Of a stretch of DNA of 64,000 nucleotides, positions 1,252 through 43,938 are shown in pieces. The notes beneath the pieces are model-generated. The model made no database searches and was not told the DNA's origin. It was given only the letters and a program-made list of their open reading frames with translations. The stretch lies in NCBI GenBank assembly GCA_000091205.1, contig AP006491.2; one strand, 5' to 3'. The first letter of the stretch is position 1; every line of letters starts with the position of its first letter. Origin of the DNA: Cyanidioschyzon merolae (Eukaryota). The translations under genes and the position numbers were made by a program.

Positions 1252-1396
1252 GTAAGTAAATCGACTTTATGCGTTGGCGGCATGCTCACAAGATCATGCG
1301 CAAACTTCACCGAAATTCTCGCTTCGAAAAAATGGACTCCGTTCAAACGACACATCCGGCTCTCTTTGGAGCCATCTAGGCATCGGCTTTGCACAG
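1252..1396 (+). repeat. Short member (146 nt) of a GTAAG...CAG-bounded intron-like element family (introner-like candidate)
   Basis: Starts GTAAGTAAA and ends TTTGCACAG. Shares ATGCGTTGG, CATGCT, a gaaa(a)ttcgaaa-like motif and an ATCGGCTTTGCACAG-like 3' end with the elements at 24271-24584 and 52281-52585. The 5' GTAAGTAAA terminates ORF 927..1259, and removing the element joins that frame to the frame of ORF 1282..1548. Confidence 0.45.
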
Positions 1397-1456
1397 AAGC
1401 AGTTTCCCGTCGACGGGGCATGCTCCCAGAGGCTCCCGGCTCTTGTCATCGGAAAC

Positions 1457-1480
1457 CGGACTCGGACTCGGACTCGGACT
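1457..1480. repeat. (CGGACT)4 hexanucleotide microsatellite
   Basis: Four perfect tandem CGGACT units are read directly in the sequence. Confidence 0.9.
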
Positions 1481-6480: not shown

Positions 6481-6743
6481 GGCACTGCATGCTGTATTTT
6501 TTTGTGGACAAAACGTTTACTTAGGCCAGCGTTCTCCGATTATGCGCTTTTTTCTTTTCTTCCTTTTTTGTGTGTTTTTCAGTGCGCGGTGAGGTATCCA
6601 TCAACCCCCTACTCCCATGTTCCATTACCTATACTTCGTCTCGGATATTCTGGTCGTTTCATACGTCCTATCGTGTGCCGAGCCTACCGAAAGCGACAGC
6701 AATAGCGCCTATAGCGCCGGTGCGGTCACTGCATGCTGTATGT
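6481..6743 (-). mobile_element. 5'-truncated copy of the 3' end of a non-LTR retrotransposon (LINE 3' UTR plus poly(A)), with a 16-bp target-site duplication
   Basis: Bases 6497-6727 are about 85-90% identical to 33228-33470, the 3' UTR of the LINE at 33.2-37.5 kb. On the minus strand it ends in A7 (TTTTTTT at 6497-6503 on plus). It is flanked by near-identical direct repeats GGCACTGCATGCTGTA (6481-6496) and GGTCACTGCATGCTGTA (6727-6743). It lies about 170 bp upstream of the POLA1 ATG. Confidence 0.6.
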
Positions 6744-6913
6744 GCGGCAAGTTACCGTTTGGATCGCATCCATCCCATATCAGACTAAAACTGTTAATAA
6801 TTAGATAAAGTGTATCAAATGGGAAACTCGGTCACTAAGCCGCGGCGCGCTCGAATTGGCGCGAAAACGCTCCGCAGTCGTTGCCGCAACATTTGGTTCT
6901 AACGCCAGTGGCC

Positions 6914-29458: not shown

Positions 29459-30500
29459 TGTCGACATCTCGCACTCCATGAAAGCTTAAATGCACAAGAG
29501 CACGGGAGAAGGAAGCAGCGTGAACCCCGAATGGTGAGCATTGCGTGCCGCTACTGGCGTTCTGCTGCTATGGAGCCAAATCCGCAGCCACGGAACCTAT
29601 TCCGGCTGCATCCTCTGAAACATATGTCGCTCACACAGCACTAGTTCTCAAGGAGAGGCCTGCGTCCTCAAACAGCGACAGCGCGTATTTTCTTAGAAAA
29701 CATCCGGACTTTCGACTGATCAGCACCGCGGGATCGCTGGCGAACTGCTGGTATTCTGCGCCCGGCTTGATCGTTATCAACTGCATCCGCAAATCTCTTT
29801 ATTCGATGTGACGCCATGCGTAGAGCAGTTTCAAATAGGAAACTTTGCGGATACCTAGAGTAAGCCGAAACTTGTTGGGCGTATTCGCGCAGAAAATAGC
29901 GGTATCCAATGCTTTCAGGGCTGTAATCTTTCAAGTGTTTCTCAGCGTGGCTTCAGAACGACAGGAATATGCAGGGCAAACGAATGATTAGGGTTGCAGA
30001 GCACAAGGAAAGGCCTCTGTGCTGTTTCCGCTGTGCGTGGATGCCTCGCGCACGGGCCATGCTTTCCGCGCCGACGCAAACACTATCGTTCGTCGCGGGT
30101 CACCGCTGTCGCACTTGTTGGAGAAAACGGCGTATTTTCCTCGTCACGCACTGGAACCGAACGAACCACGTTTGGAATCGCTGGCGCGACGCTCCCAGAC
30201 GCAACAAACTTGATGGGAAACCTTCGAAAGGCTCCGCAAATTTTGCAGTGAAGCACTAGTCGTTGTCGGCGAACGCGTACAAACGTGTTTCTTCCAGGTT
30301 GGAAGATGCTGCCACAGCGCTTACAGGTGTGCCGCTTGACATTCTCACAGTCCAGTTGAAGGTTCACCCTCGTAGCGATCTTTCGCATGAGCAGCACATA
30401 CGAGCGCGAGACCGCCGATAGGCTCTGTTGCAACGCCCTGGCAGCGCGCCACAAGTGTGCGACTCGGGCTTCTGCATCCCGTGAACGAGTGTTTTTGTAG

Positions 30501-30545
30501 TTGTTCTGCTTGTTCTGCTTGTTCTGCTTGTTCTGCTTGTTCTTC
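30501..30545. repeat. (TTGTTCTGC)n microsatellite with a 9-bp unit of about 4.5 copies
   Basis: Read directly. It lies about 100 bp outside the outer end of Fanzor-like copy A. Confidence 0.9.
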
Positions 30546-30639
30546 TGGGATGAAGAAGAGCATTGCTTCGCCATGCAGTGTCCCTACTGAGCGGACTAGA
30601 AGCGGCAGTTTTCAAAGCGTCGTTGGTGGTCACAGCGAA

Positions 30640-33225
30640 ACGCTGTTCGAAAGTCGCACGTCGCCGACCGTGCACGGTAGTAGCGGGAAACGCGCGTTCG
30701 ACATAGCGTTTCCAGCTGACGTGTAGACGCCTCCCCGTCTTTCTCGACCGGCCACCGACTACTGGTTTCAACTTTTTCTCATATAGTTCCACTTTGAGAG
30801 GTTGCCCCACAAGTCCGCTCTTGTCGTCTCTGGAGGTCTTCTCTCCAGCACCGCACATCTCCTTACATTGATAGCGGCATTAAAGTCAAGATTCACGAAC
30901 TCCATACGTTTCTTGCCATCGTTCGTTGTACTTACTAGTGCAAGTAGCCCTCGCACTTTCGCCCTCCTTTCCATTTGCTCTTCGGTCAGCGGTCCGTACT
31001 TTTTTATATCCTCAGGGCTCCGCTGACACTTTTCCATCTCGACCCTTTGAAGTGTACATCCCAGTTCATGGTGTGTATAGGATGTTCGGAACTCATCTAC
31101 AGTTACTGTGACGAAACGCCATGCACACTCTTTGTACGTTCTTGTCGTTGGAGCTGGTGTAGTTCCTTTTTGGGTCATCAAGCGCCCTGCTCCGTACGCT
31201 ATTACAAGCCTCTGACTTTAATCCTCCTTCAAGGCGCTCAACTCATTGAAACAATTCACGAATGAACGCTGCTTCTGACAATACAAGTTCATACGCAGAC
31301 GAGCCCACCGGGGCTTTGTATACTCTTTCCACAGGGCATCCCAATGCGCCATGCGAACTTCCATGAATTTCCAAAAAGCATCAAGGTCCGCTCCTCGGCT
31401 CGTCACCTCGCTCAAAGCTTCCAGGTGCTCCTTCATTCCTGCATTCCATGTCTCAGTTTTTTTCCTTGCATTCATGATTTCCGATTCTCGATCGTATCTC
31501 GCTCTCGAGAAGCTCAAAATTCGCATGTCTTTCTGACGTAAGTTACCATCAGTATCATCTTCCACACGCCTGGGCAAAGCGATGGTTATGATATTTGTGT
31601 TTCCAGGGTCCGCGTCAACGACAAGGTCGTTATGCTCCACCTCCTGCGTCGCAAGTTCCGCTTCCTTCTTATCTTCATGCTTCGCCGCGGCAGCCATACA
31701 GTCGTTATCCTCCACTTTCTGTGTGGCAGGATCCGCCGTCTTCATATCTTCATGGTTCGCCGAGGACGGAACTGGACGATCTCTCTTCAACCGCCGATAG
31801 TGTATACACAAGGCTACTCCATCGGTTTCGATCAACCCAGTAAGTACCTTTTGTTTGCTGGCTTTGAGACGTTTGAAATCGAAGAGACTCTTCCAGTACG
31901 TCTCCCGGTTTTCACCGGAGAATTCCTCCCTGCTAACACTGAACTCCGGACTGATCCCCTTCATGATGCCGTAAAGGATTCTGGAGTCGACAGTCACAAA
32001 ATGTGACTTGATGTTGCACATTGGAACCAGGTTGAAGCGCTTCCCCATTAGGACAGCCTTCCGTCTCTCCCACTCTTCATTGTTTTCCCCACTCAGCTTC
32101 ATCTCCGCTTTGCGTTCGAGTTCACGGTCCAAAAACACGAAGTACCTCAAGATGAGGAGGCAGTATCTTTCCTTATCTTTTTTCAACTCTGATACCTTTT
32201 CTGATGGATTCACCAGCCCCAAGACTGCACGGTGCTCTTGTATAACCGCACGGATCACAGAAGCTTCATTCGTGCTCTCGTTTGACGCCTTCTTCTCGAC
32301 AAATTCGACCTCATCTTCACGCTTGCGATCTTTCATGATGCCATTGATAATCGCCCATTTTCCATTGCGGGATAGGCCCGGGTAGAGTGCAACCACGGCG
32401 CGTATTAAGAAACGTTCGAGGTTCGTTGTCAAATGGTTCTTCAGGTTCGTGATGCACTTCATCGCCCCATAGTCGTAAATATCGCGGTCACCCCTGCATC
32501 GAGTACCGTTGAAGCTGTAGAAGGGATGTTTTTCGTGGAGGGCACGCACCAGCTAATGTTCCGTCCGCGCTCTCTCTGTGCCAAGCATCAGGTGACGAAT
32601 AAACGTCTTGTCGAGAAACTCGTCCGCAACCTCGACTATTTCCATGTGCGTCACGTCTTCGTACATCTCCCTCGCGCAATGCATCAGTTCTGACGACGCC
32701 TTGACAATACTCTTGGAGTACGAATCGAGACGTTTTTTGATAGCGTCTCGCAACTCTTCCCTGTAGGGATCCTTGATATGTCCAAGAAGGAAGGATTTCA
32801 CCGCCTTCTCGTTGTACAGCCGTCTTTCTTGCCGCCTTCGACGTAGGGCCTCCCCCCTTCGGTTCCTCTTCTCTTTCTTTTCTTCTGGACTCGGCACTGT
32901 TTTTTGTTTTTTTTCTGGCAGCCGGCGACCTTGGGCCCCCAGGATCGTGCACTTTCTTTTCCATAACTTTCCTTTTTAGTATTTTTGAGAAAGAACGCTC
33001 TTTGAACCCTTCTGTTATATGCTGCGAAAAAACACTTGACTAGACTTGTTTGAGAGCTGACACAAAAATGAACTGAAAACTATACGTTGCCAAGATCTCA
33101 ACGGGAATCCGACTTTTACAGCTGAACAACACGCTACTGATCTCAATCGAGTTTCCCTTCAACGGCGACATACGCGTCGTGTCTCATGCCTGCCAGATCC
33201 CCCAGGTGCACTCACCGGGCGCGAC
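30640..33225 (-). mobile_element. TnpB/Fanzor-like element, copy A (decayed), forming the left arm of a large inverted repeat
   Basis: This is the reverse complement of 37493-40100, with about 95% identity across the ORF and about 80% in the 3' flank. The inner boundary at about 33222-33225 matches B's inner boundary at about 37493-37495, and the outer homology fades at about 30640. Confidence 0.7.
30768..32964 (-). pseudogene. TnpB/Fanzor-like RuvC nuclease gene, copy A, disrupted by a frameshift, TAA and TAG stops and a 6-nt deletion
   Basis: Compared with copy B it has an extra A in an A7/A8 run near 32905 (an N-terminal frameshift), the shared in-frame TAG at 32550-32552, GGG to TAA at about 31215 (the ALKED* site), and an in-frame 6-nt deletion (RWASKKGT to RLMTQKGT). 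The RuvC-like motifs are retained: [16 protein letters not shown] and LDFNAAINV. Confidence 0.7.
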
Positions 33226-33227
33226 TC

Positions 33228-36200
33228 TTTTTTTCATAGACAAGACGTTTACTTGTGCCCGCATTCTCCGATTGTGCGCTTTTTCTTTTCTTACTTTTTT
33301 TTTCAGTGTGCGGTGACGTATCCATCAACCCCCTACCTCCATGTTACATTACTTGTACTTCGTTTTGGATATTCTGGTCGTTTCATACGTCCTATCGTGT
33401 GCCGAGCCTGCCGAAAGCGACAGCAACGGCGCCTAAAGCGCCGGTGCGGTCGCTGCACGGAGACAGAACGGCTTTTCCATACCACAGAGGGCGTCGGCTC
33501 GAGGCATGGTTCACCCGACGTAGAATCGGGTCTCGTCGTCAGTTTGAGCTCGGATAGTCTGCGGATGCAAGCTTGTCTTCGCTGCACGATACGCTGGAGA
33601 AACTTGGCTGTTAGGATACATCCTAGGAGCCGCCTCTCTCCTTCCTGGTCATGCATGGAATGCGTTGTTGTCGGTTGGCAATGCGAGTTTGTGCTTGACA
33701 CCCACCACTGTGGGTAGGCGCAGAAAGCGCACTGGGCCCGTGTGCGCATCCGATACGCTGGACCTCATGCCTAGAACGTAGCATGTGAGTTTGTTCGCCA
33801 CTAATGAGCGCTGAGGCTCGGTTAGCGGACCATCAGTTACCAGTGCTACACTCCGAGTGAGTGTCCGGCCTTCGACAATCACGGTGATGTCCAGCTGCTG
33901 CTGTCCCCCAAGGAGCTCGCTGCGCTCCTGCTTCCAGCGCGGGCAATGTAGGCCTAAATGTGTCAGCGTCTCGGGTATCTCGTCTCGACAGCAGGGACAG
34001 TGTGATTCCCAGTGCGATTCCAGTGTTCCTATACGGCTTAGAGCCGGTGCTGCCAGCCGGAAGCCACCAACGCGGATTTTGGCGAGCCACTGGGTACCTC
34101 GAGCAAGTCCCGGGAATTCCAGCCTCCTACCAGTACTTGCATGTGTATGCTAGGTTGTAGTTCCGGTATAGAGTCAAGCCGGCGTTACTGGCGCGACTGG
34201 TTCCGTGTATACGTTCCCATATGGTTGTTTGGACCGTTCGCTTGAGGCGGCGGGAGCCTTGTGCATTTCTGGGGAACGATTCGAGCGCATTTTCGCCTAA
34301 GAGGCGCTTCAGCCAAATATGCGTTGATTTCATCCAAGTGTTCTTGCGGTGCGTTGGGGTTTGCATGAAACTCCGACTGAACCAGGTGCGCATGGTGGGC
34401 CCTTTGGCCCATATGCGTGCCCGGCAGCCTGCTGCTATCGCTTCTGTCGAGGGTATTTGGAGTTCAAGTCCGAGTGCCAGCGCGGTGGTTGCTCTGCTCT
34501 GCACTGAGCATCAAACAACGACAACGAGTCGCATTGCCCTGTTGGCGGCTGTCTGCGGACGCGAGGCATTTGTGTGCTTCATGCCGCACCACCCAGCACC
34601 CCAGGTCGCAGGCTGGATGATACACATCCTTCGTGCGCTGGTACGAATTGCTATGCAGATAGAGGGGTCGGATGGGACTGGGCGTGCGATCGCTGTACGT
34701 CTATGCATCTTGGCGATCATCTCGTCAACGTGTGCGTTTTCGTCGAGCGTCGGCGTTAGACAGACCCCCAGGTAGCGATAGTTTTCCCCGATCGGAATTT
34801 CCTGATTCTGCAACCGCCACGAGCGATTGCGAATGCGCTGCGAGTCTCCATGGATGGCCATGACGCCGCACTTCGATGCTCCTACGTTCATCTCCCAGCG
34901 ATCGGCCCAGGCGCTGGCTTGTTGCATGCTACCCGCAAGCGTTTCCGGGGCGGGTGCCAACAGCACTATATCGTCCGCAACTAGACGGCCTGCGAGGCGG
35001 TTCCTATGTGAGGGCTCCTCATCGGGCATCTCCCCAGTCTATCCACGGCACCTCAAGCCCGTATTGTCTGCAGTTTTTCAGCGGATCGTTGATGAAGATG
35101 TTGAAAAGGAGCGGGGATGCGCGCTCGCCCTTTTGTAGTCCACGGCGTATTCTTATACAAGGGGTTCTTGAGCCGTCGCCCAGTCGGATGCGCATCCACG
35201 AGTCTGCATAGAGCGCACGGAAGAACGCTAAGCACTTTCCGGAGACTCCGGCTCGTTCCATCTTCAAAAATAGAGCCTCGTGCGGGACCGTGTCAAAGGC
35301 CTCTTGGAAGTCGATGAAGCATACGTAAGTTGGTTGTTGGCCGCTAATGGAGCGACGTTGCGCCACTTCAATGAGGGTCAGGGCATGGTTCATGCACTCA
35401 TCGCGGCTCCGGAATCCAGCCTGTTCTGGGGCGAAGAACTTGCGTTCCTCGAGGCCTCTCTGGATCCGGTTCGTGAGGTTGGCGCAAAAGTAGCTTCATG
35501 ATTGACGGGATGAGGCCGATAGGCCGGTAGATGTTCATGTCTTTGTGTGTAAGAGTCCTTTTTGAGGATCGGTACGACCTCGGCAGTCCTCCGTACATCT
35601 GGGATGCACGCTTCTTCAAACATGCGTTGAATGAGCTCCAGAAGGCGTTTGCATAAGATTGTGTCAGGTTCATCTGGTATCGATGGTGTCCCTGTTGTCT
35701 CGTATTTTGGGGTCACCAGTTTCATCCACTCCGCAGGGATACCGTCGATGCCAGGTGTTTTGCGGTTGCTTGAGCATAGTAGGGCCCGAACAGATTCAGG
35801 CCAGAAGATTGGCTCGTTCCATTCCGGTACCGGGTCGAGGCGCGGTAGTTCTGCAGCATATTGGTGCCAATAGATTCGGTCTTGGCAGTTCCCAGTTGCG
35901 TCTTCATGCAGCTCTATCCCGTGGTCCGTCCAGGCCTCATTCACTGAGGCACGCTCCGTCCTCAGCGCTTCCTTATAAACGATTGATGTGAGCCGCAAGC
36001 ACTTTTTTGGTGGGTCCAGTCTCGATCGAATGTAGCGCTAGGTCTCATCTTCGTTGGTGCCCTCGAGCATAAATTCCGTCAGGGAGTCGATTTTGCGGTT
36101 TCGATCCTCTCGTTTGTCTTCTCTGGAACGTTTCTTCTTTCTTTTGATAGCGTCCTCATGTTGCGCCTGTAGCGCCGGTAGCGCTGCCTTCGCTTCCTTG

Positions 36201-37470
36201 TCTCCGGCGTTGGCGCGTATGGCGGTGCGGTTGACGATCTTATAGAGTCGGTGGCATTCATCATTCCGAGTTTTGGTACGTCATTCCAGGTACCGCGGTT
36301 TGCAACTGTTGTGTTCTGGTGCAAGCAGTCCCAGTTCTCTGGCAATCTTCTGATTCCCATCTACATACTCGCGTGCCAATTGGTCAAAAGATTTGTATGC
36401 ACGGCTTTTCGGATCTTCAGCGCTGTGAGCAGGTGCCTGGGTTTGGCGACGTTTTTCTTGGGTTCCCGCTGGGGTGCCCTTTCGGGGGATCACTTGCGAT
36501 GGGCTCGTTTGGGGGGGTCTTCTTTCTATTCTTCTGTTTTTTCTTGTCGGTCTTCCTCGTCTTCTTCGGGCTCTTTCCTGAGCTGCTTTCTCTGGATATT
36601 TTGCATCTAAGTGGATCATGAGGTTTCTGTGCCTCCTTCTCCGTATCTGGTTGGGTCTCTTTACCTAATGCAGAGTCCTCCACTTGTATCAGTTCTTCGT
36701 TACAGTACTGGTAATTCGAAATCTCGTCGTCTAGTATCGAGGCCGTCCCACAAATATTCCATGATACGAAACCTATCGAGTCATAGCGCATACGGGAATA
36801 GGAATAGCGCTACGGTACTCCAGAGATACGTTGTCGATTTAGATACACGCTTCACGAGGTGTGTGAACGTACATGCCACCATTGCCCTCTGCATTCCAGT
36901 CGTTCATTGAGTGTCTGCCGCAGCGCTAGCGCGGAATCAGAAGTACATTAGTAAAGGTCGATTCGAATGCGACCTTTATCTTGCCGGACGCGTGTACCTC
37001 TCCTCAACCACAGGGGATACTCTACGAACCAACCTTTCAGCGGCTTCGTATCCGCTCCCCAAATACATAGGCGGGCAAGTCGCTTACTCCACCTTCGACA
37101 GTGAACATACTGGCAGCCGTCTTCAAAAGTATCCGCCGAGATTGTTTCCAAAGTTGAGGTAGGTACGCAAGGTAGGAGGTACAACTGAGCCCGAGTTCGA
37201 GGATAGATCCAGTATTTGCGCCGAAACCTGCAGCGTTGATTCGGGAGGGGCGAATGACTGCTCAGAACTCTCGTCAATATTTTCTGGTGCTACTGCCTCC
37301 GCCCCTCCGTTCGTTGCGGTCAAGGTCCCTGGCGTGGGCTTCCTTCCCCGTCGCTTAAACACCCCGCGTTAACCCATTTTCAGAGCTTCTCTGGAAAATC
37401 TAGACCTCTTAGGCGAGGGTGGTGTGTGGGGCTTTTAAGATAGTGGTTCTTTGATAAATAGTTTGCGACT
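33228..37470 (-). mobile_element. Non-LTR retrotransposon (LINE) of about 4.2 kb with a decayed single APE+RT ORF and poly(A)
   Basis: Read on the minus strand from 5' to 3'. It begins with an APE-like N-terminus (FVSWNICG at about 36760). RT motif 0 follows (KTPGIDGIPAEWMK), then motif 1 (VVPILKK) and motif 2 (YRPIGLIPSIMKLL). Next come motif A (FIDFQEAFDTVPH), motif B (RGLQKGERASPLLFNIF) and motif C (FADDIVLLA). These lie in at least three different frames, so the ORF is frameshifted. A C-terminal CCHC (HCPCCRDEIPETLTHLGLHCPRWKQER at about 33900) and a ~420-bp 3' UTR end in A7 at 33228-33234. The flanking hexamers GCGACT(C/A) at 33221-33227 and 37464-37470 are a possible short TSD. Confidence 0.7.
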
Positions 37471-37492
37471 AGTTTGCATCACGCTCGGTGAG

Positions 37493-40100
37493 TGCACCTG
37501 GGGGATCTGGCAGACATGAGACACGACGCGTATGTCGCCGTTGAAGGGAAACTCGATTGGGATCAGTAGCGTGTTGTTCAGCTGTAAAAGTCGGATTCCC
37601 GTTGAGATCTTGGCAACGTATAGTTTTCAGTTCATTTTTGTGTCAGCTCTCAAACAAGTCTAGTCAAGTGTTTTTTCGCAGCATATAACAGAAGGGTTCA
37701 AAGAGCGTTCTTTCTCAAAAATACTAAAAAGGAAAGTTATGGAAAAGAAAGTGCACGATCCCGGAGGCCCAGTGTCGCCGGCTGCCAGAAAAAAACAAAA
37801 AACAGTGCCGAGTCCAGAAGAAAAGGAAGAGAAGAGGAACCGAAGGGGGGAGGTCCTACGTCGAAGGCGGCAAGAAAGACGGCTGTACAACGAGAAGGCG
37901 GTGAAATCCTTCCTTCTTGGACATATCAAGGATCCCTACAGGGAAGAGTTGCGAGACGCTATCAAAAAACGTCTCGATTCGTACTCCAAGAGTATTGTCA
38001 AGGCGTCGTCAGAACTGATGCATTGCGTGAGGGAGATGTACGAAGACGTGACGCACATGGAAATAGTCGAGGTTGCGGACGAGGTTTTCGACAAGACGTT
38101 TATTCGTCACCTGATGCTTGGCACAGAGAGAGCGCGGACGGAACATTAGCTGGTGCGTGCCCTCCACGAAAAACATCCCTTCTACAGCTTCAACGGTACT
38201 CGATGCAGGGGTGACCGCGATATTTACGACTATGGGGCGATGAAGTGCATCACGAACCTGAAGAACCATTTGACAACGAACCTCGAACGTTTCTTAATAC
38301 GCGCCGTGGTTGCACTCTACCCGGGCCTATCCCGCAATGGAAAATGGGCGATTATCAATGGCATCATGAAAGATCGCAAGCGTGAAGATGAGGTCGAATT
38401 TGTCGAGAAGAAGGCGTCAAACGAGAGCACGAATGAAGCTTCTGTGATCCGTGCGGTTATACAAGAGCACCGTGCAGTCTTGGGGCTGGTGAATCCAGCA
38501 GAAAAGGTATCAGAGTTGAAGAAAGATAAGGAAAGATACTGCCTCCTCATCTTGAGGTACTTCGTGTTTTTGGACCGTGAACTCGAACGCAAAGCGGAGA
38601 TGAAGCTGAGTGAAGAAAACAATGAAGAGTGGGAGAGACGGAAGGCTTTCCTAATGGGGAGGCGCTTCAACCTGGTTCCAATGTGCAACATCAAGTCACA
38701 TTTTGTGACTGTCGACTCCAGAATCCTTTACGGCATCATGAAGGGGATCAGTCCGGAGTTCAATGTTAGCAGGGAGGAATTCTCCGGTGAAAACCGGGAG
38801 ACGTCTTGGAAGAGTCTCTTCGATTTCAAACGTCTCAAAGCCAGCAAACAAAAGGTACTTACTGGGTTGATCGAAACCGATGGAGTAGCCTTGTGTATAC
38901 ACTATCGGCGGTTGAAGAGAGATCGTCCAGTCCTGCCCTCGGCTGCGCCCGCGACGAAGGATGAAGATAAGAAGGAAGCGGCTCCTGTAACGCAGGAGGT
39001 GGAGGATAGTGACTTTCTCGTTGACGCGGCGAAGGATGAAGATAAGAAGGAAGCGGCTCCTGCGACGCAGGAGGTGGAGCATAACGACCTTGTCGTTGAC
39101 GCGGACCCTGGAAACACAAATATCATAACCATCGCTTTGCCCAGGCGTGTGGAAGATGATACTGATGGTAACTTACGTCAGAAAGACATGCGAATTTTGA
39201 GCTTCTCGAGAGCGAGATACGATCGAGAATCGGAAATCATGAATGCAAGGAAGAAAACTGAGACATGGAATGCAGGAATGAAGGAGCACCTGGAAGCTTT
39301 GAGCGAGGTGACGAGCCGAGGAGCGGACTTTGAAGCTTTTTGGAAATTCATGGAAGTTCGCATGGCGCATTGGGATGCCCTGTGGAAAGAGTATACAAAG
39401 CCCCGGTGGGCTCGTCTGCGTATGAACTTGTATTGTGGGAAGCAGCGGGCGTTCGCGAATTTGTTCAATGAGTTGAGCGCCTTGAAGGAGGATGGGAGTC
39501 AGAGGCTGGTAGTGGCTTATGGAGCAGGGCGCTGGGCGTCGAAGAAAGGCACTACGCCAGCTCCAACTACGAGGGTGCACAAGGAGTGCGCAAGGCGTTT
39601 TGTTACAATACCTGTAGATGAGTTCCGAACATCGAATACAAACCACGAGCTGGGATGCACACCCCAGAGAGTGGAGATGGAAAAGTGCCAGAGGAGCCCT
39701 GAGGAATTTGCAAATTACGGACCGCTGACGGAGGAGCAAATGGAAAGGAGAGCGAAAGTGCGAGGGCTACTTGCACTATTAAGTACAACGAACGATGGCA
39801 AGAAACGTATGGAGTTCGTGAATCTTGACTTTAATGCCGCTATCAATGTAAGGAGATGTGCGGTGCTGGAAAGTAGACCTCCAGAGTGGACACGAGAGAA
39901 CTTTTTTGGATAACCTCCCAAAGTCGAACTATATGAGAAAAAGTTGGAAGCAGAAGTAGGTGGCCGGTCGAAAAAGGCGCGGAGGCGCCTGCGCGTCGAC
40001 TGGAAACGTTTCGTGTAAGGCGCGGTTTTCCCGCCACTACTGTAAACTGCCGACGTCGTTCGACTTAGAGCGGCGTTGGCGGCTGTCCGTTCAGGGTGGC
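37493..40100 (+). mobile_element. TnpB/Fanzor-like element, copy B (the more intact one), forming the right arm of the inverted repeat
   Basis: A 246-bp 5' region, an ORF at 37739-39913, and about 190 bp of 3' flank that is still homologous to copy A. Homology ends about 35 bp upstream of the SMC1 ATG at 40135. Confidence 0.7.
37739..39913 (+). CDS. TnpB/Fanzor-like (IS605 OrfB-like) RuvC-fold nuclease candidate, 725 codons, interrupted by one in-frame TAG at 38147-38149
   Basis: A RuvC-I-like motif ([17 protein letters not shown]....DG), a segment resembling the TnpB strand that precedes the zinc ribbon ([20 protein letters not shown]), a degenerate zinc-ribbon region (H..GC...C), and a RuvC-III-like DxNAAxNI motif ([12 protein letters not shown]). 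A basic NLS-like N-terminus ([31 protein letters not shown]). An internal 75-bp tandem duplication ([15 protein letters not shown]...) sits just before RuvC-I. The ATG is at 37739. The assignment is by motif pattern only. Confidence 0.5.
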
Positions 40101-40134: not shown

Positions 40135-43100
40135 ATGGGTCGCATACAGCGCCTAGAGGTAGAAAACTTCAAGTCTTACGGTGGCAAGGTGTGCATCGGA
40201 CCTTTCGTGGAGGGGTTTACGGCTGTCATCGGACCTAACGGCGTTGGTAAGTCGAACTTATTAGATGCCTTGGGGTTTGCGCTAGGCTTGCCCGCCCGCT
40301 TTCTTCGGGCGCAGCGCTTAGCAGAACTTATCTATCGCAAATCTGACCATGATGTTGTTCATGGGCAGGAAGTTGCTGGTGAACATAACGTGGACGGTGC
40401 AAACCAGTCCCACCGTGAAACGGCGGTGGCAGGGCACGCAGACGGCTGCGCTAGCGTTCGTCTCTTTCTGGAGGTTGCGCCCGACCAGGTGCTCATTTTT
40501 GAGCGTTCCATCGAAACGAAAGGTGTTGCGAGCTACCAGGTGAACGGTCAACCGCTGAGCTCCGAGGAATATGCGGATAAGCTGGCAGAACACTCGATCT
40601 TAGTGAAAGCTCGCAACTTCCTCGTGTTCCAAAACGAAGTGGAAGATATAGCGACAAAGTCGGGAAAAGCGTTATCTGCGCTCTTCGAAGAGATATCGGG
40701 ATCGGCCGAGTTACGCAATGAGTACGATTCGGCCTTGGCGGAGGTTCGCAAGGCCGAGCAACGGCTCCATTTGTGCGCCCAGAAAAAGAGGGGCCTCCTG
40801 GCCGAAAAGAAACAGTGTCGCGCGCATTGCGATGAAGCTGAGCGTTACAACCAGCTGCAGCAACAGATCGCGAAGATCAGGAAGCTTCGCGTGCTGTTCC
40901 AGCTGTTTCATTTGAAGAAGGATGATTCCGAAGCTGAAGAAAGCACGCAGGGACTCGAACGCGAGTTGGAAGCTCTGCGAGCACGAAGAGTTACCATCGC
41001 CAGCGACCTGGAAGACCAGAAACGGGCTCTCGCCAGCATGCGCCGCGAACAAGCCGCCCTCGAAAAGCGGCGGCAAGCACTCGAGTTATCCCTCGAGAAG
41101 AATCTGATACAGCAAGCAGCTAAACGAAGCGAAGCTCGCGCTGCGGAGAAGCGGCTCTCGATGGAGCAGAAGGCCCTCGACAACCTTCGCACCAATCGGA
41201 CGCGATCCAGGGAGGAGATTCATGCGCTGGAAAAGGCGCTTGCCGAAGTTGGAGAAGCGCTGCGTGCTTTGAACGAAGAAGAGGAGCAGGCGTTGGCAGA
41301 ATTGCAAGCCGCTCACGGAGTGGATTCCTCTGCAGTTCGCAGGTTACGTGATGAGGCGGTCGCGAGCACTGCGAGCATGCGTGAGATGCTTACCACGGCC
41401 GAGAGAGCAACGGCTGCGCTACGCGCCATGCACAAGACGGAGGCGCAGAAGCTCGCGGCCTTAGAACGACGCTTTCGCGAGCTGGAAATCGATCGTGATC
41501 GTCTTTCCATGCAGATCGAGAAGATTCGGGCAAAAATCCAAGACGCGGAGAGAAATTTGGAAGAGGCCCGCATCGCAGACCAGAAGGCGCGACGGCGGTC
41601 CAGCGAACAGGCACAGAAACGCGAGGCGCTCGAGAGGGCGGCCCAGCAGTATCGCGAGCGTCTGCTAGAACTTCGCTGTGCACGAATGGAGTCCGAAAGA
41701 GAGCGAAGATTCCACGAAACCTTAGATCAAATCATGCGTCTGTTCCCTGGCGCTCGAGGTCGCATCGTGGATATCTGCCGGCCCGTCCAGCGACGCTACG
41801 AAGAAGCCGTATCTGTCATTCTGGGCAAGCTTGGAGATGCGATTGTCGTCGATGACGAACGTACAGCAAGCGAATGCATCGCTTACTTGAAACAGCAACG
41901 TGCGGGCACGGCTACGTTCTTGCCCCTTGCTGAGATTCGTCCCGCGCCCATTGATGAGAGCTTGCGTGGTATTGGTGGCACTGTGCGGCTCGCAATCGAT
42001 GTACTCGAGTTTGACAAGTCATTCTTCCCGGCCATTCAGTATGTTGTCGGAAACGCCTTAGTTTGCGACAGTTTGGATGAAGCACGCCATGTTGCGTACG
42101 GCGGCAGTCAGGTTTCACGCATCTGCACAATCGATGGCACGCTGATCCACCGTTCTGGGTTCATTACCGGCGGCGCGGAATCCGATCAGGGTGCGTCGCG
42201 CACGCTCTGGGAGAATGAACAGGCCGTCTCTCTCAAGCGGGAATTGGATGAAGTTTTGCTGGAGTTAGCGAAACTTGGTCCAGTAGATTCGGCACAAGAG
42301 CGCAATGAAGCTGAGCAAGCCCATGAAGTGCTCCTCAGTACTCAAAGACATCTCGAGTATTTACGACACGAGCTGCAACAAAATGAGGAACGTGCTGTCA
42401 AAGTCAGCTCCCAGCTGAATGCGCTTCACGAACAAGTCTCCAAAGCCAAGGTCAGCGAGGAACAATGCCGGCATCAACTCGAACAAGGCGTCGCAAATGT
42501 ATCCCAGATCAAAGAAAGAATCGAACGCGCAGAGCGAGAAATACTCGGAGATATTTCCCCGCAGAGTATTCACCGAAACGAAGAGTTCCGCGAGCGTCGC
42601 CTGGCGCTGACCTCCCAGCAAGCCAAACTGCGCGCTCGTTTAGAATACGAATACGCCAGAGAAGCAGAAACCAGCGAGCAGGACCTCGTCGAGCGCGTCC
42701 AAAAGGCCACCGCAGCCAGAGCTGAGCTGGACACCCAGATTGAACGCCTAGAGCGTGAGCAGGAAACACTCGAGCACAGTATCCGGGAGGCACTGCAACA
42801 ACAAGAGCATATTCAGCAACAACTGGCAAAAATAGAGGAAGCTCTGGAAAAGATGCGCGAAGAAGAGAAGCAGCTGGCAGAAGACATCAGTTCCAAGGAA
42901 AACGCCCTGAACACGCACCGCGCAAACAAGGAGGATATCGCCGAGCGTCTGCGCGCCCTGGAGACTGCGTGTCGCATCGACCAGATCGATGTGCGTGCGC
43001 CCGCGACAGCAGCAGAGGCGGGTCGGGGTCAGGGCCGCGGCGCTGGGCATTCGAGCGATCGCGCACGCGCTCGGACGCGCACCCGTGGTCCATCTGGTGC

Positions 43101-43938
43101 GCAGTCCGAAGACCCTGTCCTATTTGCAGAGGATCTGGATATGTCGCTCTTGAGCGAAGAGCATAGACATGCGAGAAGCCACTCTGAGCGCATGGCCATA
43201 GAGTCGTCGTTGAATGAACAGGAACAAAGTCTCGTGGCAGAGTTGGAGCGCATGGCCCCAAATCTGCGAATCACGCAACAGCTCGATGATATCCAGCAGA
43301 GGCTCGACCTTGTTGCCACCGAGCAGGAGGTCGCTCGTGGCGCGCTTGCGGAGGCAAATCGTCGATGGTTGAACGCGCGCGATGAGCGTACGCGGCGCTT
43401 TCGGGAGTGCTTCGATCATGTCGCCGTCTCCATCGATGGCGTATTCAAAGAGCTTACACGATCAGAGGTACATCCCGTGGGCGGAAGTGCCTCGATCAGC
43501 CTCGAGTCCGCGTCGGAGCCGTACCTAGGTGGCATTCGCTTCAGCGTCATGCTCCCCGCAAAGCGCTTCCGCGAGGTGGATCAGCTCAGCGGGGGCGAAC
43601 GCAGCCTGGCGGCACTGGCACTTGTCTTTGCACTGCGTGACTTTCAGAAGTGTCCGTTTTTGATTATGGACGAGATTGACGCTGCACTGGACCCCGCAAA
43701 CTTAAGCCGCGTGGCGACTTACATTCGAGGGCGTTCCGTACAGTCCCATCCATTTCAAACGATCGTCATTTCGCTTAAGGACCAGTTCTTTGAGTTCGCC
43801 AATGCCCTGGTTGGTGTTTATCGCAACCCTCTCGAAGGTCACTGCAGTCGCATGCTCACCCTAGATTTGGATGCCACTGTCGCAGCGACGAACACTGCGG
43901 ACGCCAAAGAGACGCCTGCAGACTCGTCGCCCAGTTAG
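40135..43938 (+). CDS. SMC1: Structural maintenance of chromosomes protein 1 (cohesin SMC1)
   Basis: An N-terminal Walker A head (MGRIQRLEVENFKSYGGKVCIGPF..FTAVIGPNGVGKSNLLDALGFALG), long coiled coils, a hinge, the ABC signature QLSGGERSLAALALVFAL, Walker B FLIMDEIDAALD and an SMC1-type C-terminus (VISLKDQFFEFANALVGVYR). An ATG at 40135; the track start at 40096 is not ATG. No introns. Confidence 0.9.
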   Translation: MGRIQRLEVENFKSYGGKVCIGPFVEGFTAVIGPNGVGKSNLLDALGFALGLPARFLRAQRLAELIYRKSDHDVVHGQEVAGEHNVDGANQSHRETAVAGHADGCASVRLFLEVAPDQVLIFERSIETKGVASYQVNGQPLSSEEYADKLAEHSILVKARNFLVFQNEVEDIATKSGKALSALFEEISGSAELRNEYDSALAEVRKAEQRLHLCAQKKRGLLAEKKQCRAHCDEAERYNQLQQQIAKIRKLRVLFQLFHLKKDDSEAEESTQGLERELEALRARRVTIASDLEDQKRALASMRREQAALEKRRQALELSLEKNLIQQAAKRSEARAAEKRLSMEQKALDNLRTNRTRSREEIHALEKALAEVGEALRALNEEEEQALAELQAAHGVDSSAVRRLRDEAVASTASMREMLTTAERATAALRAMHKTEAQKLAALERRFRELEIDRDRLSMQIEKIRAKIQDAERNLEEARIADQKARRRSSEQAQKREALERAAQQYRERLLELRCARMESERERRFHETLDQIMRLFPGARGRIVDICRPVQRRYEEAVSVILGKLGDAIVVDDERTASECIAYLKQQRAGTATFLPLAEIRPAPIDESLRGIGGTVRLAIDVLEFDKSFFPAIQYVVGNALVCDSLDEARHVAYGGSQVSRICTIDGTLIHRSGFITGGAESDQGASRTLWENEQAVSLKRELDEVLLELAKLGPVDSAQERNEAEQAHEVLLSTQRHLEYLRHELQQNEERAVKVSSQLNALHEQVSKAKVSEEQCRHQLEQGVANVSQIKERIERAEREILGDISPQSIHRNEEFRERRLALTSQQAKLRARLEYEYAREAETSEQDLVERVQKATAARAELDTQIERLEREQETLEHSIREALQQQEHIQQQLAKIEEALEKMREEEKQLAEDISSKENALNTHRANKEDIAERLRALETACRIDQIDVRAPATAAEAGRGQGRGAGHSSDRARARTRTRGPSGAQSEDPVLFAEDLDMSLLSEEHRHARSHSERMAIESSLNEQEQSLVAELERMAPNLRITQQLDDIQQRLDLVATEQEVARGALAEANRRWLNARDERTRRFRECFDHVAVSIDGVFKELTRSEVHPVGGSASISLESASEPYLGGIRFSVMLPAKRFREVDQLSGGERSLAALALVFALRDFQKCPFLIMDEIDAALDPANLSRVATYIRGRSVQSHPFQTIVISLKDQFFEFANALVGVYRNPLEGHCSRMLTLDLDATVAATNTADAKETPADSSPS

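What the first reader, a model, noticed from the sequence alone, without database searches (positions are those of the whole stretch)
30640..40100. Head-to-head pair of TnpB/Fanzor-like nuclease elements forming a ~9.5-kb palindrome with a LINE at its centre
Two ~2.6-kb units are reverse complements of each other. Each encodes a ~725-codon protein with a RuvC-I-like motif [15 protein letters not shown] and a RuvC-III-like motif DFNAAINV. These proteins are about 93-96% identical between copies. A single 4.3-kb non-LTR retrotransposon lies exactly between the inner ends. The arm homology (gtgcactcaccg / cggtgagtgcac) starts within about 10 bp of the LINE poly(A) on one side and within about 25 bp of its 5' end on the other. 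A possible 6-bp TSD (GCGACT) suggests the LINE landed in the short spacer of a pre-existing large palindrome. Eukaryotic TnpB homologs (Fanzors) are RNA-guided nucleases carried by diverse transposons. I have not seen a palindromic two-copy arrangement, with both copies decaying and one abutting a cohesin gene promoter, described as a standard configuration.
Basis: partly seen in the sequence, partly recalled or inferred. Interest (0 to 1): 0.85.

Follow-up and report, generated by a model that had tools for sequence, protein, structure and literature searches.

The report
Two known Fanzor1 relics flanking LINE

Summary
The window is C. merolae 10D chromosome 9. Inverted arms at 30627-33226 (-) and 37476-40090 (+) flank a 4.24-kb degenerate non-LTR retrotransposon.

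The nuclease call is right. A family profile hits solved Fanzor1 structures (E=9e-23). A confident AlphaFold model matches SpuFz1 (E=1e-15, TM 0.72). The RuvC D/E/D triad is present.

The element is not new. Both arms align at 84-87% to the published CMe-1A consensus (Bao & Jurka 2013, about 150 copies in this genome). Both copies are pseudogenes.

The proposed 6-bp TSD is not a TSD. One GCGACT belongs to the left Fanzor terminus and the other to the LINE's own 5' end. LINE poly(A) tails and LINE or TE-N2 5' ends abut the same Fanzor nucleotide at other loci.

The arms look like two distinct family members partly homogenised by gene conversion. The inner 1.4 kb is 98.5% identical against a family median of 81%. 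An unconverted tract is 17% diverged with dN/dS 0.2. A distant relative has a TE-free 579-bp Rpr2-SMC1 spacer.

Residual interest: the unexplained coupling of Fanzor 5' ends to retroelement ends, and a strand-specific 19-bp stem-loop at the 3' terminus.

The parts
30627..33226 (-). Left CMe-1A (Fanzor1) element. It is the 'body' form that lacks the TE-N2_CMe 5' module, and it is a pseudogene.
   Evidence: Inverted repeat. It is 84-87% identical to the published CMe-1A consensus, positions 670-3145. The 5' end is set by multi-copy homology and the 3' end by the covariance-model hit at 30621-30677.
33227..37475 (-). Degenerate full-length non-LTR retrotransposon (LINE). Its A7 tail appears as the T-run 33228-33234. 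Its 5' terminus reads ..TTTGCGACTAGTTT on the + strand.
   Evidence: RVT_1 matches at 35019-35393 (E=1.7e-10) and 34511-35029 (E=0.002). 5'-truncated copies with the same tail occur elsewhere. An independent 5' end is seen in L028.
37476..40090 (+). Right CMe-1A (Fanzor1) element, body form, pseudogene.
   Evidence: covariance-model hit at 40040-40094.
37739..39913 (+). Right Fanzor1 reading frame of 725 codons. It has an in-frame TAG at 38147-38149 and a premature TAA at 39911 relative to the family consensus. The catalytic codons are RuvC-I D 39104-39106, RuvC-II E 39620-39622 and RuvC-III D 39827-39829.
   Evidence: Homology to solved Fanzor1 structures.
30768..32964 (-). Left Fanzor1 reading-frame remnants. 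They carry the same TAG (32553-32555), a 1-nt frameshift near 32907 and further stops. The catalytic codons are at 31608-31610, 31092-31094 and 30885-30887.
37479..38943 (.). Homogenised inner block of the right arm. Its partner is 31759-33224. The two are 97-99% identical.
   Evidence: The arms are 98.5% identical against a family median of 81%.
39437..39790 (+). Unconverted or exchanged tract. Its partner is about 30924-31277. The tracts are 17% diverged with dN/dS 0.215. In the environmental orthologue L001 the right arm carries the left-arm version.
40040..40094 (+). 3'-terminal extended stem-loop of the right element. The left element's counterpart is at 30621-30677 (-).
   Evidence: Covariance-model hits. 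Strand asymmetry of folding. Covariation counts.
38950..39104 (+). 75-nt (25-aa) tandem repeat in the disordered linker before RuvC-I. Copy number varies from 1 to 4 between family members.
   Evidence: (I5). The linker has low pLDDT in the model.
30083..30574 (-). Flanking gene for the RNase P subunit Rpr2. Its ATG lies about 53-65 bp from the left element's 3' end.
   Evidence: Pfam Rpr2, E=1.9e-14. Synteny in L084.
40135..43938 (+). Flanking gene for cohesin SMC1. Its ATG lies 45-57 bp from the right element's 3' end.
   Evidence: Exact match to C. merolae 10D SMC1.

Best explanation
What it is (shown). The 9.5-kb block is a nest of transposable elements. It fills almost the whole spacer between the divergently transcribed Rpr2 and SMC1 genes on chromosome 9 of Cyanidioschyzon merolae 10D. 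It holds two copies of the known Fanzor1 element CMe-1A in inverted, 5'-to-5' orientation. A degenerate LINE bridges their 5' termini exactly.

How intact members work (from established Fanzor1 knowledge plus the fold match). They encode an RNA-guided RuvC DNA endonuclease. Its guide RNA is transcribed from the 3' end of the element.

State of these copies (shown). Both keep the D/E/D triad but are pseudogenes. They share a TAG at codon 137. The conserved Arg before the RuvC-III Asp is replaced by Leu. The left copy has an additional frameshift and further stops. The locus therefore encodes no active nuclease.

History of the arms (inferred). The arms began as two different family members, about 80-85% alike. 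Arm-to-arm gene conversion has homogenised the inner 1.4 kb to 98-99%. Outer tracts still differ like ordinary paralogues.

Origin of the LINE junctions (inferred, least certain). The LINE is not a random TSD-forming hit in a palindrome spacer. The 5' terminus of CMe-1A is a recurrent joining point for this LINE family and its SINE-like derivative TE-N2_CMe, in both orientations. The reading I favour is that LINE cDNA was joined, without a TSD, to breaks at the 5' boundaries of two pre-existing inverted copies, with loss of whatever lay between them.
For: Organism and locus:
- Five window ORFs match C. merolae 10D proteins CMI177C to CMI312C exactly.

Fanzor1 identity:
- A profile of 75 diverse relatives hits PpFz1 9cf0 (E=9e-23), SpuFz1 8gkh (E=6e-15) and GtFz1 9cer (E=3e-7), aligned through all three RuvC motifs.
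- The AlphaFold model (pLDDT 82, pTM 0.80) has as its top 7 Foldseek hits all Fanzor1 structures (E=1e-15 to 6e-13, target TM up to 0.72), followed by Cas12 and TnpB.
- D484 and E656 are invariant, and R724/D725 nearly invariant, in the family alignment.

CMe-1A identity:
- The published consensus aligns to both arms at 84-87%.
- The published CMe-1 protein is visibly the same family.

Pseudogene status.

Two origins plus conversion:
- The arms are 98.5% identical over 1.36 kb, against a median of 81% (5-95%: 75-85%) for 1128 family pairs.
- The 39437-39790 tract is 17% diverged with dN/dS 0.215.
- Arm-diagnostic sites are distributed differently in the environmental orthologues L001/L002 and L012.

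Insertion into an ancestral spacer:
- The syntenic CcmE-Rpr2-SMC1 locus of a distant cyanidiophyte has a 579-bp spacer with no Fanzor or LINE similarity.

Recurrent junctions:
- Poly(A) is followed by Fanzor nucleotides 1-3 in the window and in L015, L020/40, L028 and L049.
- The LINE fragments there are 4241, 1131, 286, 561 and 861 nt long, with unique upstream flanks.
- These copies do not form a clade.
- The LINE 5' end abuts Fanzor nucleotide 1 in the window, L026 and L082, with variants in L005/9 and L003.
- The TE-N2 5' end abuts the same point in at least 10 loci and in the published consensus.
Against: - The order of events is not established. LINE copies (80-88% pairwise) and Fanzor copies (75-85%) are of similar age.
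- No break, transposase or excision footprint was observed. The cDNA-bridging step is inference.
- The differing mosaics in L001 and L012 come from short-read metagenome assemblies. They could be chimeras between the two arms rather than real conversion differences. The conversion argument then rests on the mosaic within the finished 10D sequence alone.
- L026 and L082 cluster together. The LINE-5'/Fanzor junction may therefore have arisen once and been co-amplified, rather than arising repeatedly.
- Only 83 Fanzor-selected loci were examined, not the roughly 150 copies in the 10D genome. Junction frequencies are therefore biased.
Confidence: 0.75

Rival explanations
1. A tight two-copy palindrome with a short spacer existed first. 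A LINE then inserted into the spacer by ordinary endonuclease-dependent TPRT, producing the 6-bp TSD GCGACT.
For: The LINE is a discrete element with a poly(A) tail and a definable 5' end lying exactly between the arms. GCGACT occurs on both sides. LINE-last order is not excluded.
Against: - The poly(A)-side GCGACT is the reverse complement of Fanzor nucleotides 3-8 (AGTCGC). It is homologous to AATCGC in other copies that also follow a poly(A).
- The other GCGACT overlaps the LINE's own 5' terminus, of which ..TTTGCGA is present in an unrelated LINE copy in L028.
- No spacer remains. The same two junctions recur at other loci.
Confidence: 0.12
2. LINE first. The LINE sat in the Rpr2-SMC1 spacer. 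Two CMe-1A elements then inserted independently at its two ends, because the element prefers A/T runs such as poly(A) tails and A-rich LINE or SINE 5' ends. This would fit the AT-rich TAMs reported for Fanzor1.
For: - Upstream flanks at the Fanzor 5' boundary are A-runs (AAAAAAAG|) or T-rich (CTAGTTT|, TTGTTCTA|, CTTTTTTTC|) in most junction classes.
- LINE fragments of different lengths with unique upstream flanks fit pre-existing truncated LINEs.
- The 2026 review states that Fanzor1 TAMs are AT-rich and mirror the host transposon's target preference (PMC13565253).
Against: - In the element's own orientation the flank is an A-run in one class and T-rich in another, which is not a single oriented motif.
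- X-type copies have ..GGTGCAC| upstream.
- No TSDs or empty and filled LINE sites were found.
Confidence: 0.25
3. Retro-mobilised composite. The right Fanzor body plus the LINE (and, family-wide, Fanzor plus TE-N2_CMe) is a single retroelement RNA that carries Fanzor in antisense. The LINE machinery inserted it next to the left copy.
For: - The published CMe-1A consensus begins with the reverse complement of the LINE-type 3' tail. Its first 639 nt (TE-N2_CMe) share about 200 nt (79.6%) with the LINE's 3' region.
- TE-N2-type copies end in a degraded T-run.
- The family has no TIRs, TSDs or transposase.
- The LINE-5'/Fanzor junction is shared by paralogous loci L026 and L082.
Against: - Fragments retain the Fanzor 3' end and are truncated from the Fanzor 5' side. 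This is the opposite of the 5' truncation expected for such an RNA.
- The sharply conserved Fanzor 3' terminus folds better on the Fanzor-sense strand.
- Other subfamilies have non-retroelement 5' modules.
- The review notes no evidence for retrotransposon-encoded Fanzors.
Confidence: 0.12
4. A single copy underwent a local inverted duplication (fold-back or template switch). The diverged tracts were later imported from third copies by ectopic conversion.
For: The inner arms are 98-100% identical. Inverted, truncated Fanzor-Fanzor junctions exist elsewhere (L075/76, L083, L085).
Against: - Both arms end at the canonical element 3' terminus and are followed by different unique DNA. A fold-back would also duplicate the flank.
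- At least three separate diverged blocks (38943-39060, 39437-39790, 39871-40090) would each need an ectopic import.
- The arms at the other inverted junctions are 77-84% alike, so they are different copies.
Confidence: 0.08
5. The palindrome is an assembly artefact.
For: Palindromes are error-prone in assemblies. No single independent contig spans both arms.
Against: - The arms differ at 143 substituted positions plus indels.
- Independent environmental contigs reproduce each half together with its unique flank.
- From my own knowledge, not tested here: the 10D genome is a finished Sanger assembly.
Confidence: 0.02

Closest known systems
CMe-1A / CMe-1 Fanzor1 family of Cyanidioschyzon merolae (Bao & Jurka 2013, Mobile DNA 4:12; Repbase)
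   Same: Same genome and same family. Both arms align to consensus positions 670-3145 at 84-87%. The protein is the same as the published CMe-1 consensus. There are no TIRs and no recognisable TSDs, and most copies are decayed.
   Different: These two copies lack the 5' 635-bp TE-N2_CMe module of the consensus. Instead they abut the two ends of a full-length LINE. They are paired in inverted orientation and partly homogenised. The 2013 paper left the element unclassified and did not describe its termini or the retroelement nature of TE-N2_CMe.
Structurally characterised Fanzor1 nucleases (SpuFz1 8GKH/9CEU, PpFz1 9CF0, GtFz1 9CER)
   Same: Overall fold (Foldseek E=1e-15, target-normalised TM 0.72). 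RuvC D/E/D triad, with the RuvC-II Glu in the dEFRT-S/T motif. A conserved non-coding 3' end that could supply the omega RNA.
   Different: Sequence identity is 13-15%. The family has a 25-aa tandem-repeat disordered linker. The canonical CxxC...CxxC zinc ribbon is replaced by H-H-x4-C...C. SpuFz1 sits in a TIR/TA-flanked element, whereas CMe-1A has no TIRs. Activity is untested and the window copies are dead.
Large palindromes and inverted repeats homogenised by arm-to-arm gene conversion (for example human Y-chromosome palindromes, plastid inverted repeats). This comparison is from my own knowledge.
   Same: The arms are far more alike than the background paralogues, with mosaic tracts. One contig (L012) has the structure expected from flip inversion of the centre.
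   Different: The arms are only 2.6 kb and made of dead transposons. Homogenisation is incomplete. No function is implied.
Hairpin-ended single-strand transposons that carry TnpB/Fanzor (IS200/IS605; Helitron2 elements CRe-1/2/3 of Chlamydomonas, Bao & Jurka 2013)
   Same: No TIRs or TSDs. A conserved terminal stem-loop at the 3' end and a weaker subterminal hairpin at the 5' end. 3'-end fragments and variable 5' regions are as described for other Fanzor1 families.
   Different: No HUH or Rep transposase was found in the window or the loci. The target motif is undefined. The 5' hairpin is statistically weak.

Membership tests
Fanzor1 (eukaryotic TnpB-like RNA-guided nuclease) | Sequence homology to bona fide Fanzor1 across the RuvC domain | tested here: met
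   The profile of alignment A3 hits PpFz1 (E=9e-23), SpuFz1 (E=6e-15) and GtFz1 (E=3e-7). The single sequence and the shallow profile found nothing.
Fanzor1 (eukaryotic TnpB-like RNA-guided nuclease) | RuvC catalytic triad D...E...D in the motifs DPG / dEFRT / RDxNAAxNI | tested here: met
   D456, E628 and D697 are present in the right copy, with equivalents in the left copy. They are invariant or nearly invariant in the family. The conserved Arg before the third Asp is Leu in both window copies.
Fanzor1 (eukaryotic TnpB-like RNA-guided nuclease) | Three-dimensional fold like solved Fanzor1 structures | tested here: met
   Model of family member P0002 (pLDDT 82). Foldseek hits 1-7 are Fanzor1 structures, with E=1e-15 and TM 0.72 for SpuFz1.
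Fanzor1 (eukaryotic TnpB-like RNA-guided nuclease) | Zinc-ribbon (CxxC...CxxC) between RuvC-II and RuvC-III (Pfam OrfB_Zn_ribbon / Cas12f1-like_TNB) | tested here: inconclusive
   Only sub-threshold PF07282 hits in relatives (E=0.002-0.09, below the 26.3-bit cut-off). The family has TSYTHHELGC...EKC instead of two CxxC pairs.
Fanzor1 (eukaryotic TnpB-like RNA-guided nuclease) | Guide (omega) RNA encoded at the 3' end of the element | tested here: inconclusive
   For: the terminal 19-bp stem-loop is conserved and folds better on the sense strand (p=5e-7). There is covariation in the model-fitted alignment (11 pairs against 5.9 in shuffles). The 3' 211 nt fold with z=-3.7. Against: alignment-based tests with MAFFT were negative, there is no Rfam match, and there are no expression data.
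Fanzor1 (eukaryotic TnpB-like RNA-guided nuclease) | RNA-guided DNA cleavage | not testable with these tools
   This needs biochemistry. The window copies carry premature stops.
CMe-1A (Repbase / Bao & Jurka 2013) | DNA similarity to the published consensus at the family's typical level (about 80%) | tested here: met
   84-87% identity over consensus positions 670-3145 for both arms.
CMe-1A (Repbase / Bao & Jurka 2013) | 5' 635-bp module identical to TE-N2_CMe | tested here: not met
   The arms start at consensus position about 645-670. The upstream sequence is LINE, not TE-N2. These are body-only members. A solo TE-N2-like copy lies at 47640-48303.
CMe-1A (Repbase / Bao & Jurka 2013) | No TIRs, no recognisable TSDs | tested here: met
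   No terminal inverted repeats within an element, and no flanking duplications found. The paper reports the same.
Non-LTR retrotransposon (central element) | Reverse transcriptase, 3' poly(A), and 5'-truncated copies sharing the 3' end | tested here: met
   RVT_1 at E=1.7e-10 and E=0.002. A7 tail. Copies of 286, 561, 861 and 1131 nt with the same tail.
Non-LTR retrotransposon (central element) | Target-site duplication flanking the insertion; endonuclease domain | tested here: not met
   The candidate TSD is explained by element sequence. No endonuclease domain was detected in the degraded ORFs.
Palindrome homogenised by gene conversion | Arm identity far above paralogue background, with discrete unconverted tracts | tested here: met
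   98.5% against a median of 81%. Tracts at 38943-39060, 39437-39790 and 39871-40090.
IS200/IS605- or Helitron2-like hairpin-ended element | Subterminal hairpins at both ends and an HUH transposase partner | tested here: inconclusive
   The 3' stem-loop is supported. The 5' hairpin is weak (mean z=-0.4, p=0.03). No transposase was seen in the window or the loci. The whole genome was not searched.

The most novel reading that the evidence does not exclude
CMe-1A may be a Fanzor1 element that is mechanistically coupled to a non-LTR retrotransposon family.

Its canonical 5' module TE-N2_CMe turns out to be an antisense, poly(A)-tailed, SINE-like derivative of the same LINE that sits in this palindrome. 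LINE poly(A) tails, with five different truncation lengths, and LINE or TE-N2 5' ends are all joined to the same first nucleotide of the Fanzor body.

Two mechanisms could produce this:
- The element's boundary is a recurrent break site that primes or captures LINE cDNA.
- The Fanzor gene is moved as antisense cargo of a retroelement.

Either would be the first functional link between a Fanzor and retrotransposition. A 2026 review says there is no evidence for such a link (PMC13565253).
Probability: 0.2. Interest if true: 0.7.

Novelty: already known. Interest (0 to 1): 0.3.

Why it matters
As it stands, the finding re-identifies two of the roughly 150 published CMe-1A Fanzor1 copies of C. merolae, and both are dead. 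It adds no new kind of nuclease or system.

What could matter:
- **Transposition mechanism.** The family's mechanism has been 'unknown' since 2013. The termini defined here give concrete handles on it. These are a sharp 5' end, a strand-specific 19-bp 3' stem-loop, and the recognition that TE-N2_CMe is a LINE-derived SINE.
- **Link to retroelements.** The precise, recurrent joining of LINE and SINE ends to the Fanzor 5' nucleotide is a testable hint of crosstalk between a Fanzor element and retrotransposition.
- **Candidate for biochemistry.** One environmental copy (P0002 in L003) is intact and could be tested with its 3' RNA.
- **Population genetics.** The palindrome sits between two essential genes in a very compact genome. 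It may be a handy natural case of gene conversion or flip inversion, and of promoter displacement.

Tried and rejected
- **Single-sequence searches found nothing.** Pfam, NCBIfam and PDB gave no hits. A 41-sequence shallow profile against PDB also found nothing. The first AlphaFold run on that shallow alignment was useless (pLDDT 35). Only the diverse 75-sequence alignment worked.
- **PF26935 is only a DUF.** This domain, attached to the homologues, is DUF8286 and is absent from the local Pfam copy.
- **RIP-like mutation was rejected.** There are 80 transitions and 63 transversions between the arms, with no C-to-T excess.
- **RNAalifold and pair counting on MAFFT alignments of the 3' end gave no structure or covariation**. 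Signal appeared only after a structure-aware covariance-model alignment, which leans towards the model.
- **No Rfam family** in the 64-kb window.
- **TSD searches for TE-N2-type and poly(A)-type copies were unconvincing**.
- **Orthology of the other LINE-linked loci (L005, L009, L026, L032, L064, L082) to this locus was rejected.** None carries Rpr2, CcmE or SMC1.
- **The poly(A)-type copies being one amplified subfamily was not supported.** They do not form a clade and their LINE lengths differ.
- **Using relative age to order the LINE and Fanzor insertions was rejected.** Their divergences overlap.

Full report
**1.

A repeat search finds four collinear inverted blocks. Together they form arms at 30688-33224 and 37479-40027.

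A base-by-base alignment shows that identity is uneven. The inner 1.4 kb is 98-100% identical. Several outer 200-nt windows are only 80-92% identical. There are also a 12-nt in-frame indel and three 1-2-nt indels.

The right arm carries a 725-codon frame (37739-39913) broken by one TAG at 38147-38149. The left arm has the same TAG (32553-32555). It also has a 1-nt frameshift near 32907 and two more stops. Frame-corrected amino-acid identity between the arms is 91.8%.

The centre is a minus-strand element:
- It has an A7 tail, seen as the T-run 33228-33234.
- It has fragmented RVT_1 matches (E=1.7e-10 and 0.002).
- Its 5' end reads ..TTTGCGACTAGTTT on the + strand.

**2. Where the window comes from.**

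Five window ORFs are exact matches to annotated proteins of Cyanidioschyzon merolae strain 10D, CMI177C to CMI312C, on an 810,151-bp record.

The gene to the right of the palindrome is cohesin SMC1, with its ATG at 40135. The gene to the left is the RNase P subunit Rpr2 (30083-30574, minus strand), preceded by CcmE.

In a distant cyanidiophyte whose SMC1 is 61% identical, the order CcmE-Rpr2(-)-SMC1(+) is conserved. Its spacer is 579 bp and has no similarity to the Fanzor protein or to the 9.5-kb block.

The block is therefore an insertion nest in a divergent-promoter spacer. Its two outer ends lie about 45-65 bp from the two start codons.

**3. The protein is a Fanzor1.**

The single sequence hits nothing in Pfam, NCBIfam or the PDB. 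Its 40 closest relatives are all unnamed metagenome proteins carrying only DUF8286.

An exhaustive profile search found 1480 cluster representatives at 50% identity. Some have sub-threshold matches to the Cas12f1-like TNB / OrfB zinc-ribbon domain.

A profile of 75 diverse members hits the solved Fanzor1 proteins of three species:
- Parasitella, E=9e-23.
- Spizellomyces, E=6e-15.
- Guillardia, E=3e-7.

The alignments run through DPG (RuvC-I), dEFRT (RuvC-II) and nRDxNAAxNI (RuvC-III).

The first AlphaFold model, built on a shallow alignment, failed (pLDDT 35). With the diverse alignment it reached pLDDT 82 and pTM 0.80. Its seven best Foldseek matches in the PDB are all Fanzor1 structures (E=1e-15 to 6e-13, target-normalised TM up to 0.72). 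Cas12 and TnpB proteins follow.

The three catalytic codons are present in both arms. The near-invariant Arg before the third Asp is Leu in both. The canonical double CxxC zinc ribbon is replaced by H-H-x4-C...C throughout the family.

**4. It is an already published family.**

Bao & Jurka (2013) list one Fanzor1 family in C. merolae, CMe-1A:
- About 150 copies, each about 80% identical to a 3169-bp consensus.
- No TIRs, and TSDs undetermined.
- The first 635 bp equal another repeat, TE-N2_CMe.
- Classification unknown.

I retrieved the consensus from their Additional file 2 and aligned it to the window:
- Positions 670-3145 match both arms at 84-87%.
- Positions 5-639 match a solo repeat at window 48278-47640 (76%).
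- Positions 84-282 match the 3' region of the central LINE (33332-33530, 79.6%).

The consensus begins CGATGACAAAACGTTTAC. This is the reverse complement of the LINE-type 3' tail ..AAACGTCTTGTCTATG-poly(A). The solo copy in the window ends in A8.

TE-N2_CMe is therefore a poly(A)-tailed, SINE-like derivative of this LINE family. It lies antisense to Fanzor in the consensus element. The 2013 paper did not note this.

**5. True ends of the elements.**

Eighty related loci were fetched from metagenomes. The scan reported 220 relatives in total.

Homology to the right arm starts sharply at 37475-37478 (GCATCGCGCTCGGTGAG...) and stops at 40077-40078 (...CGAACGGCGTT). The arms are thus complete 'bodies' that lack only the 5' module.

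What lies upstream of the body differs between subfamilies:
- TE-N2 in antisense, in at least 10 loci.
- An unrelated 630-bp module that I call X, in at least 12 loci.
- The LINE 5' end: window right arm, L026 and L082, with variants in L005/L009 and a truncated LINE in L003.
- A LINE poly(A) tail in sense: window left arm, L015, L020/40, L028 and L049, plus L032/L064 joined 56 nt further in.

**6. The TSD and 'short spacer' reading fails.**

After the poly(A), the left arm reads G-AGTCGCGCC. Other poly(A)-linked copies read G-AATCGCGC. The left-hand GCGACT is therefore simply the Fanzor terminus.

The right-hand GCGACT overlaps the LINE 5' end. The sequence ..ATAGTTTGCGA recurs in a LINE derivative in L028 that is not next to a Fanzor at that end.

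The LINE touches the first nucleotide of both bodies.

**7. A recurrent, unexplained coupling.**

The poly(A)-linked copies carry LINE fragments of 286, 561, 861, 1131 and 4241 nt. Their upstream flanks are unique DNA. They do not form a clade in a star-like tree. They look like independent events at one and the same nucleotide.

Three explanations remain open:
- The LINE targets the Fanzor 5' boundary.
- The Fanzor element targets A/T runs at retroelement ends. Fanzor1 TAMs are reported to be AT-rich (PMC13565253).
- LINE or SINE cDNA is captured at breaks made at the element boundary. This would produce both orientations, variable truncation, loss of upstream DNA and absence of TSDs.

I lean towards the third for this locus, but it is inference. 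The ages do not order the events. LINE pairs are 80-88% identical and Fanzor pairs 75-85%.

**8. The arms are two copies being homogenised.**

Among 1128 pairs of family members, the first 1.36 kb is 81% identical at the median (5-95%: 75-85%). The two arms are 98.5% identical.

Differences cluster in three blocks: 38943-39060, 39437-39790 and 39871-40090.

The 39437-39790 block is 17% diverged with dN/dS 0.215. That is what two family members that diverged under constraint look like.

Environmental orthologues show different mosaics:
- In L001/L002 (right arm plus SMC1, 98.3%), the right arm carries the left-arm version of that block.
- L012 joins the LINE 5' end to an arm that is right-like inside and left-like outside, and continues into the left flank (98.8%).

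These patterns fit ongoing arm-to-arm conversion. L012 also fits flip inversion of the LINE. Short-read chimeras between the arms cannot be excluded.

A fold-back duplication is unlikely. Each arm ends at the canonical 3' terminus and is followed by different unique DNA.

**9. Head-to-head pairs are not unique to this locus.**

Three other loci have inverted Fanzor-Fanzor junctions in which both copies are truncated at their 5' sides. These are L075/76, L083 and L085. Their arms are 77-84% alike, so they are different copies.

L085 is the orthologous SMC1 locus of another sample:
- The right arm starts at position 37608.
- It is joined through 5 nt of microhomology to a different inverted copy, which is 96% identical to the L028 copy.
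- A MetAP-like gene follows.

This is either a real rearrangement or an odd chimera.

Tandem pairs also occur (L007, L036, L073, L027/28), as does one tail-to-tail pair. Copies therefore cluster in all orientations.

**10. The 3' terminus.**

The last roughly 65 nt are non-coding in the consensus and as conserved as the ORF.

Tests on MAFFT alignments gave no consensus structure or covariation.

Single-sequence folding shows a 15-19-bp terminal stem-loop. Its 3' arm runs about 12 nt past the point where BLAST homology stops. This explains a GGTG motif seen after GGCGTT in about half of the copies.

Further support for the stem-loop:
- In 41 copies the sense strand folds better than the antisense strand (-23.4 against -19.0 kcal/mol, paired t p=5e-7). 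Several of the commonest pairs are G-U.
- A covariance model built from seven clean copies finds the two arm ends in the window and nothing else there.
- On the model-fitted alignment, 11 pairs show double-sided changes against 5.9 +/- 1.4 in shuffles (2 of 500 shuffles reach this). That is 32 cells against 14.3 (0 of 500).

This alignment leans towards the model. The result fits an omega-RNA terminal stem or a top-strand DNA hairpin of an HUH-type transposon end. I cannot tell which.

A 5' hairpin (GCGCTC-GGT-GAGCGC, or GCGCG-N7-CGCGC in TE-N2-type copies) is only weakly supported.

**11. State of the family.**

Of 41 environmental copies covering the whole ORF, only one (L003, protein P0002) has an uninterrupted frame. 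The window copies are dead.

**12. Verdict.**

The palindrome is real. The nuclease identification is right. The element is the published CMe-1A, and the LINE/TSD story is wrong in detail.

The locus is best read as an old TE nest whose inverted Fanzor arms are being homogenised. The only non-trivial leads are the Fanzor-retroelement end coupling and the terminal stem-loop.

Noticed in passing
window 47640-48303 (+): Solo TE-N2_CMe-like element. It is 76% identical to positions 5-639 of the published CMe-1A consensus, ends in A8, and shares the LINE-type 3' tail. TE-N2_CMe therefore appears to be a SINE-like derivative of the LINE at the palindrome centre.
   Followed up: partly
window 6497-6736: A 5'-truncated LINE 3' fragment with its T-run at 6497 (minus-strand element). 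It lies about 150-380 bp upstream of the DNA polymerase alpha catalytic subunit ORF (6881-11497).
   Followed up: no
L012 1-3661 (contig Ga0080006_1153697): The contig joins the LINE 5' end to an arm that is right-arm-like inside and left-arm-like outside, then runs into the left flank (98.8%). It is either an assembly chimera between the arms or the flip-inverted isomer expected from recombination between the inverted arms.
   Followed up: partly
L085 1434-6400 (sample 3300052695): At the orthologous SMC1 locus, the right arm (from window position 37608) is fused head to head, through 5 nt of microhomology, to a different Fanzor copy (96% identical to the L028 copy). A MetAP-like gene follows instead of the LINE, left arm and Rpr2. 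This may be a strain-specific rearrangement.
   Followed up: partly
L075 4-1694, L076 1-1711, L083 1-1427: Further inverted Fanzor-Fanzor junctions. Both copies are truncated on their 5' sides, and the arms are only 77-84% alike. All three truncated junctions are head to head and retain the 3' ends.
   Followed up: partly
L035 4370-4472; L047 ~430-530; L013 ~380-480; L006 ~930-1010: X-type CMe-1A copies carry a second copy of the last roughly 100 nt of the element, including the terminal stem-loop. It lies 70-130 nt upstream of their 630-bp 5' module, inside a larger shared upstream repeat. This could be a direct terminal repeat or an adjacent non-autonomous element sharing the 3' end.
   Followed up: partly
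window 38950-39104 and 31610-31762; L003 11221-11450; L014 9198-9500: A 75-nt (25-aa, KHEEKKEA..QEVEDND) tandem repeat in the disordered linker just before RuvC-I. Copy number varies from 1 to 4 between family members.
   Followed up: no
5' junctions of X-type copies (for example L042 7640-7680) and 3' flanks of many copies: A GGTGC motif lies immediately upstream of the Fanzor body (..CGCGCGGTGCAC|GCATC) in X-type copies. It resembles the GGTG(C/T)G at the element's 3' end. It could be a target motif or a duplication.
   Followed up: no
L003 10001-12259 (protein P0002): The only intact Fanzor1 ORF among 41 full-length environmental copies (819-codon open stretch). It lies between a 2OG-Fe(II) oxygenase gene and a GRAM/VASt gene, with a 1.27-kb 5'-truncated LINE fragment directly upstream.
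   Followed up: partly
window 18899-20509 (+) and 20669-22783 (-): Two adjacent, convergently oriented MRS2/CorA-like magnesium transporter genes. The pair is also present in the distant relative's syntenic locus L084.
   Followed up: no
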